A stretch of DNA of 64,000 nucleotides, from contig CAZCAO010000001.1 of NCBI GenBank assembly GCA_964496815.1, positions 17,803 to 81,802 of the forward strand, in the 5' to 3' direction. This document shows, piece after piece, positions 50,769 to 57,100 of this stretch. The position numbers were made by a program, and so were the translations under genes. How positions within the stretch are numbered: the first letter of the stretch is position 1; every line of letters starts with the position of its first letter. The notes beneath the pieces were generated by a model. It was not told the origin of the DNA. It searched no databases and was given only the letters and a program-made list of their open reading frames with translations. The stretch comes from an uncultured Candidatus Saccharibacteria bacterium (GTDB taxonomy: Bacteria; Patescibacteriota; Saccharimonadia; CAILAD01; JADZBC01).

Positions 50769-50934
50769 GTGTATCTACGTATAGATACCCTCCTAAACTA
50801 CGTCCTTTTCCTAGTTAATGCTCCGCCCTAAAAATTTGGGCATTCGCGCACTTGGCTTAGAAACAAAAACGACCGTATTAAGGTAATCCTAACAGGTCGA
50901 GAGATATCTAAAATCAAGTGAACGCAGCTATATT

Positions 50935-50963
50935 AGCATGACGTAAGCACTTTGTCAAGCATT
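50935..50963 (-). promoter_or_regulatory. sigma70-like promoter for rpf-like gene
   Basis: Minus strand TTGACA-17-TAATAT. Confidence 0.45.
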
Positions 50964-51004
50964 TTGAAGCACTTTTTACCACCTAAAGAAAAGACGAATT
51001 TTTG

Positions 51005-51300
51005 TAAAAAAAGAACCACCTTGGCTATGAAGGTGGCAACGTAGCCTGGGAGGGGGTGGAATCCTCCCAGGCTACGCGAGCATTGACGAGGTGTGTCCCC
51101 CTCTTGCACACCTGACTGCTCTGGGGCGAAGTGACAGGGGCTGAGGGCCCGAAGCAGGAGGCCTGGCCTGGTGCCCATCAGCGGGTGTAAAGCGCTATCG
51201 ATGGGTGGGGCCTTTGCTCCGGGCCGACAGCTGTCGACTCTACGTTGAGTCGACTGAGGCGGTTTCCCCTGGTTTCCTCTAGCCAGATGGCTTGGTTGTC
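51005..51300 (-). ncRNA. GC-rich structured RNA with intrinsic terminator upstream of rpf-like gene; candidate ydaO-type c-di-AMP riboswitch
   Basis: Minus-strand RNA contains GGGGAAACCGCC, CCCGGAGCAAAGG, CCCCACCCAUCGAUAG blocks and several perfect hairpins; ends in CCACCTT..AAGGTGG + U7 terminator; possible promoter TTGACA-16-TAGAAT at ~51415-51448 (minus). Confidence 0.35.
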
Positions 51301-51479
51301 ACGAGCTTCTGAGCTTCGTCGGTTAGGTTTTTATCCAGCTCCTGCGTCTGGTCCGAACGAACTGTTTTGGAGAAGCTTGTGAAACGAGGCCGTTTGGCTT
51401 GAGTTGGTTTTATTCTACTCCGCTTACGTTTCGTGTCAACGCTTTTTTCGCGCCCAGGGTACTGCTATACTGGTAAGAT

Positions 51480-53264: not shown

Positions 53265-53326
53265 CCTTTAGATTTGCGAGATATTTTTGCCCTTTTGGGC
53301 TATCTGAGTATAGTCATTTATGAAAC

Positions 53327-53355
53327 GGGCTCCGAGAGGAGCCTTTGTTATTATT
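53327..53355 (+). terminator. Intrinsic terminator after ABC exporter
   Basis: GGGCTCC-gaga-GGAGCC followed by TTTGTTATTATT. Confidence 0.6.
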
Positions 53356-53504
53356 GAGAATTGGCTGTATTATATTCGTGTCCGCAACTGTGCCCGGAGG
53401 TACAAAATGAACATTCCTGCTTGGGGCATCGTGGCTCCACCCCAGAGCGACTTGAGAAATATCTCGGGTCGCTTCTCCATTCTATAAAAATCCCCTAAAT
53501 ACTA

Positions 53505-53533
53505 TTGACAAGCGTAAGCGACTATGCTATTAT
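53505..53533 (+). promoter_or_regulatory. Near-consensus sigma70 promoter
   Basis: TTGACA-17 bp-TATTAT. Confidence 0.6.
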
Positions 53534-53539
53534 ACATTC

Positions 53540-53953
53540 AACGTCATCGGCAGTGCGCACAGCGCGCGTCGTTGGCCACCCTCACGGAGAGGGGACGTGA
53601 CCCGGTATGCGGGCTTGGTCTTCGGACACACGTTTCAGCTGAGTCCTCGGACACGAGGTATGATCTAGGGCTGCTCGAAGCCCGCGGTCAAAAGCTCACT
53701 CCAAGTGACCCACGAGTCACTTGGTAGTCGGGAACATGTTCCTGACTAGTTTTGCGATCGGGTCGAGATGCGTGGCTTTGTCCACCACCCGAAAACAATC
53801 GAGAGGATGCAGTTCTGTGATCGCACACAGAATCCTTTCTTAGACGGGCTCTTCATCGAGTCGGCTCCCTTCGGGGTAGTTATCTCGATGAATCCCGTCA
53901 ATCCTATTTGAATTATCTACAAGAGGACTCCTTTCGGAGTCCTCTTGTTATTT
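53540..53953 (+). ncRNA. Unclassified ~415-nt GC-rich structured transcript with own promoter and terminator
   Basis: ~65% GC in a ~50% GC genome; many stems (CCAAGTGA/TCACTTGG, GGGCT/AGCCC, GGAACATGTTCC, GCGATC...GATCGC); ends with AAGAGGACTCC-tttc-GGAGTCCTCTT + GTTATTT; no credible ORF. Confidence 0.45.
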
Positions 53954-54186
53954 ACCTAGCTAATTACTACGGCAGTAGCCTAAACCATCTTGCTCATAAA
54001 AAACCTGTCCATTAGGGGTATGCCCCTAAGCGGCTTGAAATCTCCCAGCCCGTTTTGGTTATGCCTGAATCCATATTGCTGCTGGGGCGTATTCTCAGGT
54101 ATAATAATCAGCATAAGCTTTTATATTTTGTTCAATAAAGTGAGGGTGATATCACTAAGAAATTAGTACAAAAGGCGGCCACTACT

Positions 54187-57100
54187 ATGCGACGCGCAGC
54201 AGAGCGTGGTCGTACTGTATTTGTTCGTACTAAAATCCCGCATCACGCTAAACGTGCTCGCGTAGTGGTAGCTGCGCATGCCAGGCGCGCCCATAGTGCG
54301 ACGTTGGGCAGGGCCCATTCGCACTTGGTCACTAGAGTGCCGATGTATAGCAAGTGGCATGGCTGGAAGCACCATAAACATGTTCATCACGGTGTTTTGG
54401 CGGCCGTCTTGGTGGCTGGAACTCTAAATATTTTATTATTCCGCTCGGCTTTTGCCCTTTCGGATATTACTCAGTTGTGGAACTTTTCTAGCCAGTCTGA
54501 CTACACGCTGTCAGATACCAATGCACTGGAATATAGCGGCAATAGTGTGCGCCTAAAAGCCCAGAATTATACGAGTGACGCTAATACCATGGCCCTGTAC
54601 CATCTGGATGAATCAAATGGCACTTCGGCAAGTGACGATTCAAGTAATAACAATACAGGCTTGCTAGCTAATGCGCCGGCGTGGGGAGCTGGGAATCTCA
54701 ACAATGCCCTTACCCTAAACGGCACGAACCAAAGTGTTAGTGCAGCCGATTCAAGCTCGCTTTCGCTTTCGCAGAGCAATAGTTTAGAGGCTTGGTCAAA
54801 GTTAGGTTCTAGCTTTTCGGCCAATTCTCAGCAGAACGACCAAGTGATTATGGATAAGGGTAGTTATAAACTCTATTATGATCACGAGACTGGTAAGCCA
54901 ACCTATGAGCTAGAGAACTCGTCGGCTACAAGCTGGACTCCGCAGGCGGGTAACGGCCAGAATAACAGTTGGAATACCTCTGGCCCGACCGCTACAAAAG
55001 CATCAGTCGTTCACGATAACAATCTATACATTGGCACAGCAGGCGGCGCAGGTTACGCTCAAGTTTGGGGCTATACAGGTTCAGCTTGGACTAAAATTGG
55101 CGGTGATGGCATAAACTCAGGCTGGGCAGCAAACACGTATGAGGAGGTCGACTCCCTTACTTCAGATGGAACATATCTATATGCTGGCCTCGGTACAACT
55201 ACAGGTGATGGTGAGGTGTGGCGTTGGAATGGTTCTAGCTGGAGCAAAATTGGAGGTGATGGCATAAACTCAGGCTGGGCAGCAGCTACCTATGAGTCTG
55301 TGGCTAGCATGACATATATGGGGGGTAATCTCTACGCCGGGCTAGGTGCAAGTGGAGGTGACGGCGAGGTATGGAAATGGAACGGAACGAGCTGGACTAA
55401 GATTGGCGGCGACTCAATTAACTCTGGTTTTAATATCGGAACTGTCGTAAGCCTTGCGAATGATGGAACGTACGTTTATGCCGGCACAGGTACTGCTGCA
55501 GGAGATGCCGATGTCTGGAGATGGGACGGCGCAATTTGGACCCAGCTCGGCGGCGATGGACTAAACTCAAGTTGGGCGGCGGGCACCTATCAGCAGGTGT
55601 TAAGTATGTTTGTACAGGGCGGACAGTTGTATGTTGGTACGGGTGCCGGCACGAGCTTGGGTGAAGTTTGGAAGTGGAGTGGTAGTGCTTGGGCCAGGCT
55701 GGCTAGTAGCGGAACGGGATTCCCGGCAGCCACGTATGAGGGTGTATGGAGTATCACGGGCGACGGAACTAATCTTTATGTTGGCACTGGCAATAGTCAG
55801 AATGACGGTGATGTATATAAATACAACGGTTCTACATGGTCGCAAATCGGTGGTGACGCCCTAAGCTCTGGTTGGACGCAGGGATACATCGTCTATTCAC
55901 TTACTTGGTTCAACGGAAAACTTTATGCCGATGCGACTCAAGCTTCCAGTGGCGATGTCTTTTACTCTTGGAATGGTTCTGCTTGGACGCGTGAAGGTGG
56001 TATGTACTATGGTGGTAGTTGGGGAATGATTAATCTCAATAGTGTGCGGTCTATGACAACTGCCAACGGCAAGTTATATGCTGGCCTTGCAGGGAATTCC
56101 AACGCCAGCGTGTTTGAATACACAGGATCAGCTTGGCGGATTATTGGTGCGCCTGGGCTTAATTCCGCCTGGGGCGTGAGCCAAATTAGCGAGGTTAATG
56201 CCATGACATCAATGGGGGGACAGCTATATATCGGCACAAGTGGCGGGCAGAATGGTGATGCGGAATTGTGGCGTTGGAATGGCACGAGTTGGGCTCAGGT
56301 AGGCGGCGATGGCATAAATTCAAGCTGGAATGGTTCTTATACACGTATTTATGCAATGGCATCAGATGGTACCAATCTTTATGCCGGGGTCGGTTCCACC
56401 GGAGGCAATGGTGAAGTGTGGCGCTATTCGGGCTCAACCTGGACGCGGATAGGCGGCGCAGGGGCCAACGGTAGCTGGAATGGAACTTACCGAAATATAT
56501 ACTCTTTAGTCGTTTCGGAGGGAAATCTTTATGTAGGTAGCTATGGATCAACCAATAATAGTGCCGATGTGTGGAAGTGGAATGGGTCAAGCTGGACTCA
56601 AATTGGTGGCGATGGATTGAATTCCGGTTGGAATTTCAGCTCTATAGGTAATGGTGAGGTTGGTTCGCTCGCAGTTTATGGTAATAAGTTGTATGCAGGG
56701 ATAGGCTCTCTAAGCGCTGGAGATGCCTCGGTTTGGTCTTGGGATGGAGCTGCCTGGACCAAGGTGGGGGGCGATGACGTTAATGGCAGTTGGACGACCA
56801 GCACCTATGAACGTGTCGCTAGTATGGTTGTATATAACGGCCAGCTTTATGCCGGCCTGGGTTCAACAGGCAGTAATGGCGAACTCTGGCGTTATAATGG
56901 TTCAACCTGGACGCAAGTCGGCGGCGACAGTCTCAATGGCGGCTGGAGTTCGTCGATTGAAAGCGTGCGCTCTCTAGCGGTCTATAAAGGTAAGCTTTTT
57001 GCGGGTCTTGGTGACACTCAGAATTCGGATGCCCTGATTTATTCGTATGGTAATAATGGCTTCCTGCAGGGTTCTACAAGCAGTTTCGACACTGCTTGGC

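What the first reader, a model, noticed from the sequence alone, without database searches (positions are those of the whole stretch)
53505..53953. Unclassified ~415-nt structured RNA gene with a near-consensus promoter and strong terminator
The promoter is TTGACA-17-TATTAT and the terminator is an 11-bp GC-rich stem plus a U-tract. Together they bracket a ~65% GC, ORF-free segment. The only ORF, 53524..53727, starts inside the -10 element and has no RBS. The transcript is rich in perfect stems: CCAAGTGA/TCACTTGG, GGGCT/AGCCC, palindromic GGAACATGTTCC, long-range GCGATC...GATCGC and a UUCG tetraloop. High GC and dense structure in a moderate-GC genome are hallmarks of housekeeping ncRNAs. I could not find RNase P P4 sequences (GGAAAGUCCGG / ACAGAANCCGGCUUA), tmRNA acceptor, T-arm or tag features, or the SRP domain-IV motif. 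It may be a divergent version of one of these, a 6S-like RNA, or a novel large ncRNA. It sits immediately upstream of the 2016-aa surface protein gene.
Basis: seen in the sequence. Interest (0 to 1): 0.7.

Follow-up and report, generated by a model that had tools for sequence, protein, structure and literature searches.

The report
Orphan 414-nt structured RNA gene
A Saccharibacteria (TM7) genome carries a ~414-base gene for a tightly folded non-coding RNA that matches no known RNA family; the gene is real and under selection, but it was found in only two sampled lineages and its job is unknown.

Summary
Window 53505-53953 (+) has an 11/12 sigma-70 promoter, a ~414-nt ORF-poor segment and a 12-13-bp terminator hairpin. 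It folds far better than shuffles (z -7.7) and ranks 2nd of 774 GC-corrected windows. GC is 54% (62% in the 5' domain), not 65%.

One homologue exists, in another Saccharibacteria MAG (L004). Neutral sites between the two genomes are saturated (39.5% identity). The promoter (92%), 5' domain (80%) and terminator (74%) are conserved. The central ~220 nt are at neutral level (44.5%) but keep the same hairpins: 17 pairs changed on both sides, including one in a pseudoknot. The 67-aa ORF is broken in L004.

No Rfam family, tRNA or tmRNA matches. No copy was found in viral or JGI metagenome collections, in 276 kb of related loci, or through called ORFs in 5.8 billion proteins.

The gene sits in a repeat-bounded module in a variable spot; close relatives lack it there. 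The downstream surface-protein gene has its own conserved promoter.

Verdict: a real, independently transcribed structured ncRNA of a new, narrowly distributed family. It is accessory rather than housekeeping, and its function is unknown. A second unclassified ~415-nt structured element (51412-50995, minus strand), conserved across the genus, was found nearby.

The parts
53433..53475 (+). Upstream copy of a ~45-70-nt two-hairpin repeat motif (CCACCCCAGAGCGACTTGAGAAATATCTCGGGTCGC) that bounds the module on its 5' side. It looks like a terminator.
   Evidence: nhmmer/blastn: 36 nt identical to L004 13606-13641. It also occurs at L004 12672-12740 and L003 13691-13755.
53505..53533 (+). Sigma-70-type promoter TTGACA-17-TATTAT with a TG extended -10. 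The predicted transcription start is about 53540.
   Evidence: 11/12. One of six >=11/12 sites in the window. 92% identical to L004, spacer included.
53541..53704 (+). Conserved 5' domain: P1 hairpin (53543-53576), P2 hairpin (53579-53593), P3 three-way junction with GUAUG and UUCG loops (53594-53634) and P4 multibranch (53637-53700). This is the presumed functional core.
   Evidence: 80-89% identity to L004 where neutral sites are 39.5% identical. The consensus fold has 45 pairs. GC is 62%.
53701..53748 (+). P5 (53701-53724) and P6 (53725-53748) hairpins. Their sequences are unrelated to those in L004, but hairpins sit at the same positions.
53753..53758 (+). 5' strand (UGCGAU) of the proposed pseudoknot; it pairs with the P8 loop at 53820-53825.
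   Evidence: Six pairs in the window and five in L004, with one A-U to G-C double change (helix 15).
53759..53791 (+). P7 hairpin.
   Evidence: Two double-sided compensatory pairs (helices 16-17).
53801..53839 (+). P8 hairpin. Its loop AUCGCA (53820-53825) is the 3' strand of the pseudoknot.
   Evidence: Six of 12 pairs changed on both sides and all remain paired (helices 18-19).
53843..53899 (+). P9, a long hairpin capped by CCC-UUCG-GGG.
   Evidence: L004 has a longer hairpin with the same cap.
53919..53953 (+). Intrinsic terminator: a 12-13-bp stem, a UUUC loop and a UUAUUU tail. This is the 3' end of the RNA.
   Evidence: 74% identical to L004, and the changes are G-C to G-U only (helix 23).
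54013..54055 (+). Degenerate second copy of the repeat motif, bounding the module on its 3' side.
   Evidence: Alignment with the second motif copy in L004 and the single copy in L003.
54076..54105 (+). The surface-protein gene's own promoter (TTGCTG-18-TATAAT), followed by a conserved 5' UTR up to the ATG at 54187. It is not part of the RNA and shows that the downstream gene is independent of it.
   Evidence: Conserved in the window, L004 and L003, the last of which lacks the RNA. Reading it as a promoter is my inference from the sequence; the scan did not list it.

Best explanation
This is a stand-alone gene for a ~414-nt non-coding RNA, transcribed from the + strand (start about 53540, end about 53953) by a strong constitutive-type promoter and ended by its own terminator. 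The RNA folds into about nine helices plus one pseudoknot.

The 165-nt 5' domain is the functional core: its sequence is conserved. The 3' ~220 nt act as a structural scaffold: the hairpins are kept while the sequence drifts freely.

The gene sits in a small module bounded by copies of a two-hairpin repeat, in a variable spot between an ABC-transporter gene and a giant surface-protein gene of a Saccharibacteria genus. It is dispensable, since several close relatives lack it at this spot.

Most likely it acts in trans as a folded RNA that binds or scaffolds a protein encoded in the core genome, or possibly has catalytic activity. No protein gene travels with it.

Shown: the gene signals, the structure, the selection pattern, the absence of any Rfam match and the patchy distribution. 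Inferred: that it is transcribed, that it acts in trans, and that it has a protein partner.
For: Gene signals: an 11/12 promoter with TG, which is rare in the window, and a 12-13-bp terminator. Both are conserved in L004.

Structure: z -7.67 for the window copy and -5.70 for L004. It ranks 2nd of 774 GC-corrected windows.

Selection: four-fold sites of the adjacent ABC gene are 39.5% identical. Against that, the promoter is 92% identical, the 5' domain 80%, the terminator 74% and the central region 44.5%. The central region is still independently structured in both copies (z -6.2 and -4.3), with the hairpins in the same order.

Compensation: 17 pairs changed on both sides, against 0-1 in slid controls. 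With a structure predicted from the window copy alone, the figure is 14 against 0-5. One of the compensatory pairs is in the pseudoknot.

Strand: all 11 one-sided changes are wobble-compatible on the + strand. The + strand also folds better than the - strand in both copies (vs 10, 23 vs 83).

Non-coding: the 67-aa frame stops after 24 codons in L004.

Independence: the downstream gene has its own conserved promoter and UTR. By my reading of the L004 sequence, the RNA there is followed by a different small ORF (ORF84) with its own promoter-like site. ORF84 is an orphan.

No cargo protein is shared between the two modules.
Against: Only two sequences are known, so covariation has no real statistical power (R-scape is not possible). 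The consensus structure was also derived from the same two sequences.

There are no expression data.

Nothing indicates what the RNA binds or does. A trans-acting, protein-binding role is a default inference, not a result.

The U-tract is interrupted, so some read-through into the downstream gene is possible.

I could not search the rest of the relatives' genomes, so 'absent in relatives' is shown only for the syntenic position and for about 20 kb around it.
Confidence: 0.55

Rival explanations
1. It is a cis-acting leader for the giant surface-protein operon: an attenuator, a riboswitch, or a processive-antitermination RNA of the EAR or put type. Transcription from the strong promoter would make an RNA that decides whether RNA polymerase reads through its own terminator and the repeat motif into the 6-kb surface-protein gene and the ABC exporter genes.
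For: It has the same orientation as the orthologous surface-protein gene and lies just upstream of it in both genomes that carry it. A conserved 5' domain, a variable region and then a terminator is the general layout of a riboswitch. The interrupted U-tract would allow regulated read-through. RNA-B has the same arrangement upstream of a cell-wall hydrolase gene: promoter, RNA, terminator, second promoter, gene.
Against: The surface-protein gene has its own conserved promoter and 5' UTR, shared with L003, which lacks the RNA. Five other relatives have the gene without the RNA. In L004 a different ORF, with its own promoter-like site by my reading, and another terminator-like repeat lie between the RNA and the gene. 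By my inspection of the two sequences, the only candidate anti-terminator pairing, GAGUCCUC at about 53602-53609, is not conserved in L004. About 220 nt of stable hairpins between the 'aptamer' and the terminator is unusual for a riboswitch.
Confidence: 0.15
2. It is decaying foreign or mobile-element DNA with no current function, or it works at the DNA level (for example as a recombination or replication site). On this view the hairpins reflect GC-rich palindromes rather than a functional RNA.
For: It lies in a variable insertion spot between duplicated repeats. Its distribution is patchy and it has been lost repeatedly. GC is above the genome average. The - strand is also structured (z -5.8 and -3.0).
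Against: The promoter, 5' domain and terminator are 74-92% identical where neutral sites are 39.5%, which is not expected for decaying DNA. One-sided changes are wobble pairs on the + strand only, and the + strand is 8-20 kcal/mol more stable. No integrase, transposase or replication gene is nearby.
Confidence: 0.1
3. It is a structured mRNA for a small protein: either the 67-aa ORF at 53524-53727, or a shorter peptide as in hok-type type I toxin mRNAs, which are also ~400 nt and highly folded.
For: A 67-aa ATG ORF exists. The length and folding resemble hok mRNAs (my own knowledge, not tested).
Against: In L004 the 67-aa frame stops after 24 codons because of a 2-nt indel. The only partly shared small frame (GTG...MTRYAGLVFGHTF) runs for 25 codons in the window and 60 in L004. 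The ORF start lies inside the -10 element. No called ORF in 5.8 billion proteins matches any of the six frames. No hydrophobic peptide is conserved.
Confidence: 0.05
4. It is a highly divergent version of a universal housekeeping RNA (RNase P RNA, tmRNA, SRP RNA or 6S RNA) that Rfam models fail to recognise in Patescibacteria.
For: The size range, its own promoter and terminator and its GC enrichment all fit. Divergent Patescibacteria group I introns are reported to escape Rfam's RF00028 model (PMC13011429), so null Rfam results in this phylum are not absolute.
Against: No RNase P, tmRNA, SRP or 6S match appears even at E<=10 for either copy. ARAGORN finds nothing. The signature sequences are absent with 2 mismatches allowed. 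The gene is absent from the syntenic position in close relatives and lies within a repeat-bounded insertion. Half of the molecule evolves at the neutral rate.
Confidence: 0.03

Closest known systems
Large 'ornate' bacterial ncRNAs found by comparative genomics (OLE, GOLLD, ROOL, HEARO, raiA)
   Same: It is a long, GC-enriched, multi-helix RNA with a pseudoknot and its own promoter and terminator. Its phylogenetic distribution is narrow or patchy. Like GOLLD and ROOL, it is associated with variable or mobile DNA rather than with a fixed operon.
   Different: It matches none of their Rfam models. At 414 nt it is shorter than OLE, GOLLD and ROOL. It is not in a prophage and there are no phage genes or tRNAs nearby. 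Only two representatives are known, so the structure is much less well supported.
RNase P RNA, tmRNA and large SRP RNA (universal structured RNAs)
   Same: The length is 350-420 nt, it is a stand-alone gene, it is more GC-rich and more structured than its surroundings, and it has peripheral helices that vary while a core is conserved.
   Different: There is no covariance-model match, no P4, T-arm, tag or domain-IV signature, and no 5'-3' acceptor pairing. It is not conserved among close relatives.
Riboswitch or leader RNAs with terminator expression platforms, and processive-antitermination RNAs (EAR, put)
   Same: A conserved 5' folded domain is followed by a variable region and an intrinsic terminator, in the same orientation as a downstream gene for a secreted or surface product.
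   Different: The downstream gene has its own promoter and exists without the RNA in relatives. The downstream neighbour differs between the two copies. No conserved alternative pairing was seen. It is much longer than EAR or put.
RNA-B, the neighbouring unclassified structured element (window 51412-50995, minus strand)
   Same: Same genome and the same size (~415 nt). It has an 11/12 promoter, a terminator and no Rfam match. It has the same promoter-RNA-terminator-second promoter-gene layout. The two are the most structured segments of the window.
   Different: There is no sequence or covariance-model similarity to RNA-A. RNA-B is conserved in synteny across the genus, whereas RNA-A is patchy.

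Membership tests
Bacterial RNase P RNA (Rfam RF00010/RF00011) | Match to the covariance model | tested here: not met
   No hit at gathering thresholds or at E<=10 with permissive filters, for the window copy or the L004 copy.
Bacterial RNase P RNA (Rfam RF00010/RF00011) | Conserved P4 strands (GAGGAAAGUCC and ACAGAANNCGGCUUA) | tested here: not met
   Absent from both copies with up to 2 mismatches allowed.
Bacterial RNase P RNA (Rfam RF00010/RF00011) | Essential gene, present in every related genome | tested here: inconclusive
   Absent from the syntenic position and about 20 kb around it in 10 related lineages. The rest of those genomes could not be searched.
tmRNA (ssrA) | tRNA-like domain (acceptor stem formed by the 5' and 3' ends, T-arm, CCA end) plus a tag reading frame | tested here: not met
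   ARAGORN finds no tmRNA. There is no Rfam tmRNA hit. No T-arm motif is shared by both copies. The 3' end is an intrinsic terminator.
SRP RNA and 6S RNA | Domain-IV motif (SRP), or a long hairpin with a central bubble (6S), with a covariance-model match | tested here: not met
   No Rfam hit. The domain-IV motif is absent. The fold is a string of about nine separate helices, not one long hairpin.
Riboswitch or cis-regulatory leader | It lies in the 5' UTR of the regulated gene, which depends on the leader's promoter | tested here: not met
   The surface-protein gene has its own conserved promoter and UTR, in genomes with and without the RNA. The immediate downstream neighbour differs between the two copies.
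Riboswitch or cis-regulatory leader | Conserved mutually exclusive terminator and anti-terminator pairings | tested here: inconclusive
   From my inspection of the sequences, the one candidate, GAGUCCUC at about 53602, is not conserved in L004. No systematic search was run.
Group I intron | Match to the intron core model, with flanking exons of a host gene | tested here: not met
   No RF00028 hit, although divergent Patescibacteria introns can escape that model (PMC13011429). The promoter abuts the 5' end and the terminator forms the 3' end, so there are no exons.
Type I toxin mRNA (hok-like) or small-protein mRNA | A conserved small ORF | tested here: not met
   The frames are broken by indels between the two copies. 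No protein in the collection matches any of the six frames.
Guide or scaffold RNA of a mobile nuclease or recombinase (omega RNA/HEARO, tracrRNA, IS110 bridge RNA) | An adjacent gene for the partner protein (IscB, TnpB, Cas or an IS110 recombinase) | tested here: not met
   The neighbours are an ABC transporter, a Laminin_G/fn3 surface protein and ABC/FtsX genes. The small ORFs in L004 match no Pfam or PHROG family. There is no HEARO hit.
New structured ncRNA family (generic criteria) | Conserved structure supported by statistically significant covariation across many sequences | tested here: inconclusive
   17 compensatory pairs against 0-1 in controls, and 14 against 0-5 with the window-only structure. 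These come from only two sequences, so R-scape-type significance cannot be reached.
New structured ncRNA family (generic criteria) | Evidence of transcription as a discrete RNA | not testable with these tools
   Only sequence signals are available: a conserved promoter and terminator.

The most novel reading that the evidence does not exclude
RNA-A is the first seen member of a new functional class of large, pseudoknotted RNAs specific to Saccharibacteria and carried on a repeat-bounded, excisable module. It would have a ribozyme-like or RNP-core 5' domain, or it would act as a processive antiterminator that boosts expression of the giant surface-protein operon used in contact with the host. 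Together with the genus-wide RNA-B next door, this would mean that these reduced epibiont genomes invest in several large RNAs that no current database describes.
Probability: 0.2. Interest if true: 0.7.

Novelty: new variant of a known kind. Interest (0 to 1): 0.5.

Why it matters
Saccharibacteria and other CPR/Patescibacteria have tiny genomes and few known regulators, so any large, strongly expressed RNA under selection is likely to do something that matters for their epibiotic lifestyle. This locus gives two concrete candidates of about 415 nt that are invisible to Rfam-based annotation. One is accessory and module-borne (RNA-A); the other is conserved across the genus (RNA-B). They lie next to genes for a cell-wall hydrolase and a giant surface protein. 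If transcription is confirmed they would add new RNA families, and RNA-A would be a rare example of a structured-RNA gene that is gained and lost as a discrete unit. At present the value is limited: there are only two sequences, no expression data and no functional lead.

Tried and rejected
1. Rfam 15 at gathering thresholds on the whole window, and at E<=10 on the region, on the L004 copy and on RNA-B, plus gathering thresholds on 136 kb of related loci. Only chance hits appeared.

2. ARAGORN found no tRNA or tmRNA in 64 kb.

3. blastn of the RNA against the phage and plasmid collections found nothing.

4. Five exact-pattern scans of IMG/VR with the conserved blocks and the repeat motif gave two hits, both chance.

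5. One JGI metagenome scan with CGGTATGCGGN{5,9}CTTCGGACAC gave nine hits, all chance.

6. Synteny route. ABC-transporter relatives from GTDB genomes, and from the protein collection followed by contig look-ups, were searched with nhmmer and a covariance model. Only L004 has the RNA.

7. A six-frame concatenated translation of both copies was searched against 5.8 billion proteins, to catch spurious ORFs called on homologues. No hit at E<=10.

8. ORF84, which follows the RNA in L004, was used as a handle. It is an orphan.

9. Pfam and PHROG searches of the ORFs that fill the same spot in relatives gave no family. A PADLOC search was attempted but failed on a coordinate error and was not repeated.

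10. Antisense pairing with the start regions of neighbouring genes gave z about 0, although the test was crude.

11. A CsrB-like GGA decoy was considered. By hand I counted about 8-9 GGA motifs against about 7 expected from composition. This is my own estimate, not a tool result, and I rejected the idea.

12. A group II intron domain V resemblance in 'CCGGUAUGCGGG' was rejected because there is no Rfam match.

13. Homology between RNA-A and RNA-B was rejected.

14. A resemblance of RNA-B 'GAGCAAAGGCC' to RNase P P4 (2 mismatches) was judged to be chance. That segment pairs locally and no RNase P model matches.

Full report
**What is there**

The window is a chromosomal piece of a Candidatus Saccharibacteria (TM7, Patescibacteria) genome. 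The adjacent ABC-transporter protein retrieves identical metagenome contigs and eight related loci whose record titles name Saccharibacteria or Patescibacteria MAGs. The neighbouring genes are housekeeping genes: HisS, TypA/BipA, RelA/SpoT and an Rpf-like transglycosylase.

At 53505-53533 (+) there is a TTGACA-17-TATTAT promoter with a TG extended -10, scoring 11/12. Only six sites in the whole window, counting both strands, score that high. The predicted start is about 53540.

The segment ends in a hairpin with a 12-13-bp stem (53919/20-53947/8), a UUUC loop and an interrupted U-tract, UUAUUU.

GC is 54% for the transcript and 62% for its first 165 nt, against 49% for the window.

**Is it more than chance?**

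The + strand folds to -182.9 kcal/mol, against -137.9 +/- 5.9 for dinucleotide shuffles (z -7.67). The - strand gives -162.3 (z -5.78).

I slid a 414-nt window over about 58 kb on both strands and corrected for GC. This segment ranks second of 774 windows. The first-ranked window is another gene-free gap 2 kb upstream, described below as RNA-B.

**Known families**

Rfam 15 gives no match at gathering thresholds anywhere in the window. It gives nothing relevant at E<=10 in 53300-54200 or in the homologous region of L004. ARAGORN finds no tRNA or tmRNA in 64 kb.

The RNase P P4 strands, a tmRNA T-arm and SRP domain-IV motifs are absent from both copies with two mismatches allowed.

A paper on Patescibacteria introns notes that divergent group I introns in this phylum escape Rfam's RF00028 model (PMC13011429). 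A null Rfam result is therefore not absolute. This element, however, has a promoter at its 5' end and a terminator at its 3' end, so it has no exons.

**Homologues**

I searched by DNA in phages and plasmids. I ran five pattern scans of IMG/VR (checked in 37) and one pattern scan of JGI metagenomes, which gave nine hits, all chance.

I also searched by synteny through ABC-transporter relatives, using nhmmer and a covariance model of the 5' domain, with and without filters.

Finally, I searched a six-frame concatenated translation of both copies against 5.8 billion predicted proteins, to catch spurious ORFs called on homologues.

Exactly one homologue turned up: L004:12768-13242, in MAG contig CAYTBW010000002.1. 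It occupies the same position between the ABC-transporter and surface-protein genes.

**What the comparison shows**

The two genomes are far apart. Four-fold degenerate sites of the ABC gene are 39.5% identical, which means neutral sites are saturated. Against that background:
- the promoter is 92% identical, spacer included;
- the 5' domain is 80% identical (89% in the tighter alignment A5);
- the terminator is 74% identical;
- the central ~220 nt are 44.5% identical, which is the neutral level.

The central region is still strongly structured in both copies (z -6.2 and -4.3) and has the same series of hairpins, P5 to P9.

On the sequence-only alignment, the consensus structure has 103 pairs, and 99.5% of cells are paired, against about 42% when partners are slid. 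Seventeen pairs changed on both sides, against 0-1 in slid controls; six of these are in P8. That structure was derived from the same two sequences, so I repeated the test with a structure predicted from the window copy alone. Fourteen double-sided changes were kept, against 0-5 in slid controls. Thirty-five pairs were broken, mostly in hairpins that MAFFT cannot align.

It forms six pairs in the window and five in L004, with one A-U to G-C double change. That makes it a plausible pseudoknot (helix 15).

All 11 one-sided changes are wobble-compatible on the + strand. The + strand also folds better than the - strand in L004 (-190.2 against -182.3).

The 67-aa ORF is not conserved. A 2-nt indel makes the same frame stop after 24 codons in L004.

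Together these results support a + strand structured RNA whose promoter, 5' domain and terminator are under purifying selection, and whose 3' half is selected for shape only.

**Context**

The gap between the ABC-transporter gene and the ~2000-aa surface-protein gene varies between relatives:
- L006 has a 116-nt gap with no RNA.
- L003, L005, L008, L029 and L030-L033 have 0.7-2 kb filled with unrelated ORFs of no known family.
- L027, the closest relative at 92%, runs straight from the ABC gene into rpsB.

A two-hairpin, terminator-like repeat lies just upstream of the RNA promoter in both genomes. It occurs again downstream of the module: intact in L004 and degenerate in the window (about 54013-54055). 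L003, which lacks the RNA, has a single copy directly upstream of the surface-protein gene. A single copy is what recombination between the two flanking repeats would leave behind.

By ABC-protein similarity, the carriers fall in two of the three subclades of the >=85% group. Combined with the neutral-level divergence of the central region, this fits an old element lost several times at least as well as it fits recent transfer. I cannot tell the two apart.

The surface-protein gene has its own promoter-like site (TTGCTG-18-TATAAT, 54076-54105) and a highly conserved 5' UTR in the window, L004 and L003. In L004 an orphan 84-aa ORF lies between the RNA and that gene; by my reading of the sequence it has its own promoter-like site. 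No protein gene is shared by the two modules.

**How it most likely works**

Shown: a conserved promoter and terminator bracket a conserved, pseudoknotted fold on the + strand. There is no coding potential, no match to a known family, and a patchy distribution in a repeat-bounded module.

Inferred: the RNA is made as a discrete, abundant ~414-nt molecule and acts in trans. The 5' domain would be the working part and the 3' hairpins a scaffold or stabiliser. Because no partner gene travels with it, any partner must be encoded in the core genome.

I put about 0.75 on 'real, independently transcribed structured ncRNA of a new family' and about 0.4 on the trans-acting mechanism. That gives 0.55 for the explanation as a whole.

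The main rival, at 0.15, is a cis-acting leader or processive-antitermination element for the surface-protein operon. The shared orientation, the leaky-looking U-tract and the parallel layout of RNA-B favour it. The independent, conserved promoter of the downstream gene and the intervening ORF and repeat in L004 count against it.

The remaining rivals are:
- non-functional or DNA-level remnant, 0.10;
- small-protein or type I toxin mRNA, 0.05;
- divergent housekeeping RNA, 0.03.

A crude duplex test found no excess complementarity to the start regions of neighbouring genes.

**Second element, noticed in passing**

The 712-nt gene-free gap between the transglycosylase gene (-) and the ABC gene (+) contains, on the - strand:
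- a TTGACA-16-TAGAAT promoter at 51439->51412 (11/12);
- a hairpin plus T7 terminator at 51037->51015;
- about 415 nt of strong structure between them (z -6.7).

It has no Rfam match. Unlike RNA-A, it is conserved in synteny in at least nine related loci. It has an almost invariant ~100-nt core and covarying peripheral helices: 24 of 83 pairs show double-sided changes among seven sequences.

By folding energy alone the + strand looks better. I assign the strand from the conserved promoter and terminator, so the assignment is not settled. RNA-B has no similarity to RNA-A.

**Verdict**

The 'housekeeping RNA' reading is not supported.

This is a new, very narrowly distributed RNA family of a familiar general kind: a stand-alone structured bacterial ncRNA. 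I score interest at 0.5. It is a solid candidate in an under-explored phylum with an unusual module-like genomic setting. It is held back by having only two sequences, no expression evidence and no functional lead.

Noticed in passing
window 50995-51445, minus strand: RNA-B is a second unclassified structured element of about 415 nt, with an 11/12 promoter (51439->51412) and a T7 terminator (51037->51015). It has z -6.7 and no Rfam match. It is conserved in synteny in at least nine related Saccharibacteria loci, with an almost invariant ~100-nt core and covarying outer helices. It is the most structured segment of the window. Its strand is ambiguous by folding energy, because the + strand folds better.
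   Followed up: partly
window 53433-53475 and ~54013-54055; L004 12672-12740 and 13576-13650; L003 13691-13755: A two-hairpin, terminator-like repeat (core CCACCCCAGAGCGACTTGAGAAATATCTCGGGTCGC) bounds the RNA module. It sits at the 3' end of each small cassette-like unit in L004, and a single copy remains in L003, which lacks the RNA. It was not found in viral contigs or in other relatives.
   Followed up: partly
window 53265-54186 and the equivalent gaps in L003-L008 and L027-L033: The gap between the ABC-transporter and surface-protein genes is a variable spot. It ranges from 116 nt to 2.4 kb and holds unrelated small ORFs, several with predicted membrane helices, that match no Pfam or PHROG family. 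In L027, L007 and L009 the ABC gene is followed by other genes instead of the surface-protein gene; in L027 these are rpsB-tsf-frr.
   Followed up: partly
window 54106-54186: The 5' UTR of the 2016-aa surface-protein gene is almost invariant between genomes whose neutral sites are saturated (for example AGCATAAGCTTTTAT...AAAGTGAGGGTGATATC.CTAAGAAATTAG). This suggests a conserved regulatory or translational element. The start codon is ATG in the window and L003 but TTG in L004.
   Followed up: no
window 55050-56950: The surface-protein gene contains at least 10 diverged copies of a ~150-153-nt (about 51-aa) repeat with the motif GD.EVW.WNGS.W..IGGDG.NSGW, upstream of the Laminin_G_3 and fn3-like domains.
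   Followed up: no
window 53345-53480: A weaker promoter-like site (TTGTTA-17-TATTAT, 9/12) follows the ABC gene's terminator (53327-53344) and faces the repeat motif's terminator-like hairpin about 100 nt downstream. This could be a short transcript. One assembly calls a 55-aa ORF here (53320-53487) and another does not.
   Followed up: no
window 50930-50958, minus strand: A second strong promoter (TTGACA-17-TAATAT with TG, 10/12) lies between the RNA-B terminator and the transglycosylase gene. This gives the same promoter-RNA-terminator-promoter-gene layout as at RNA-A.
   Followed up: no
whole window and L003-L030: No tRNA and no Rfam family at gathering thresholds in 64 kb of the window or in 136 kb of related loci.
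   Followed up: no
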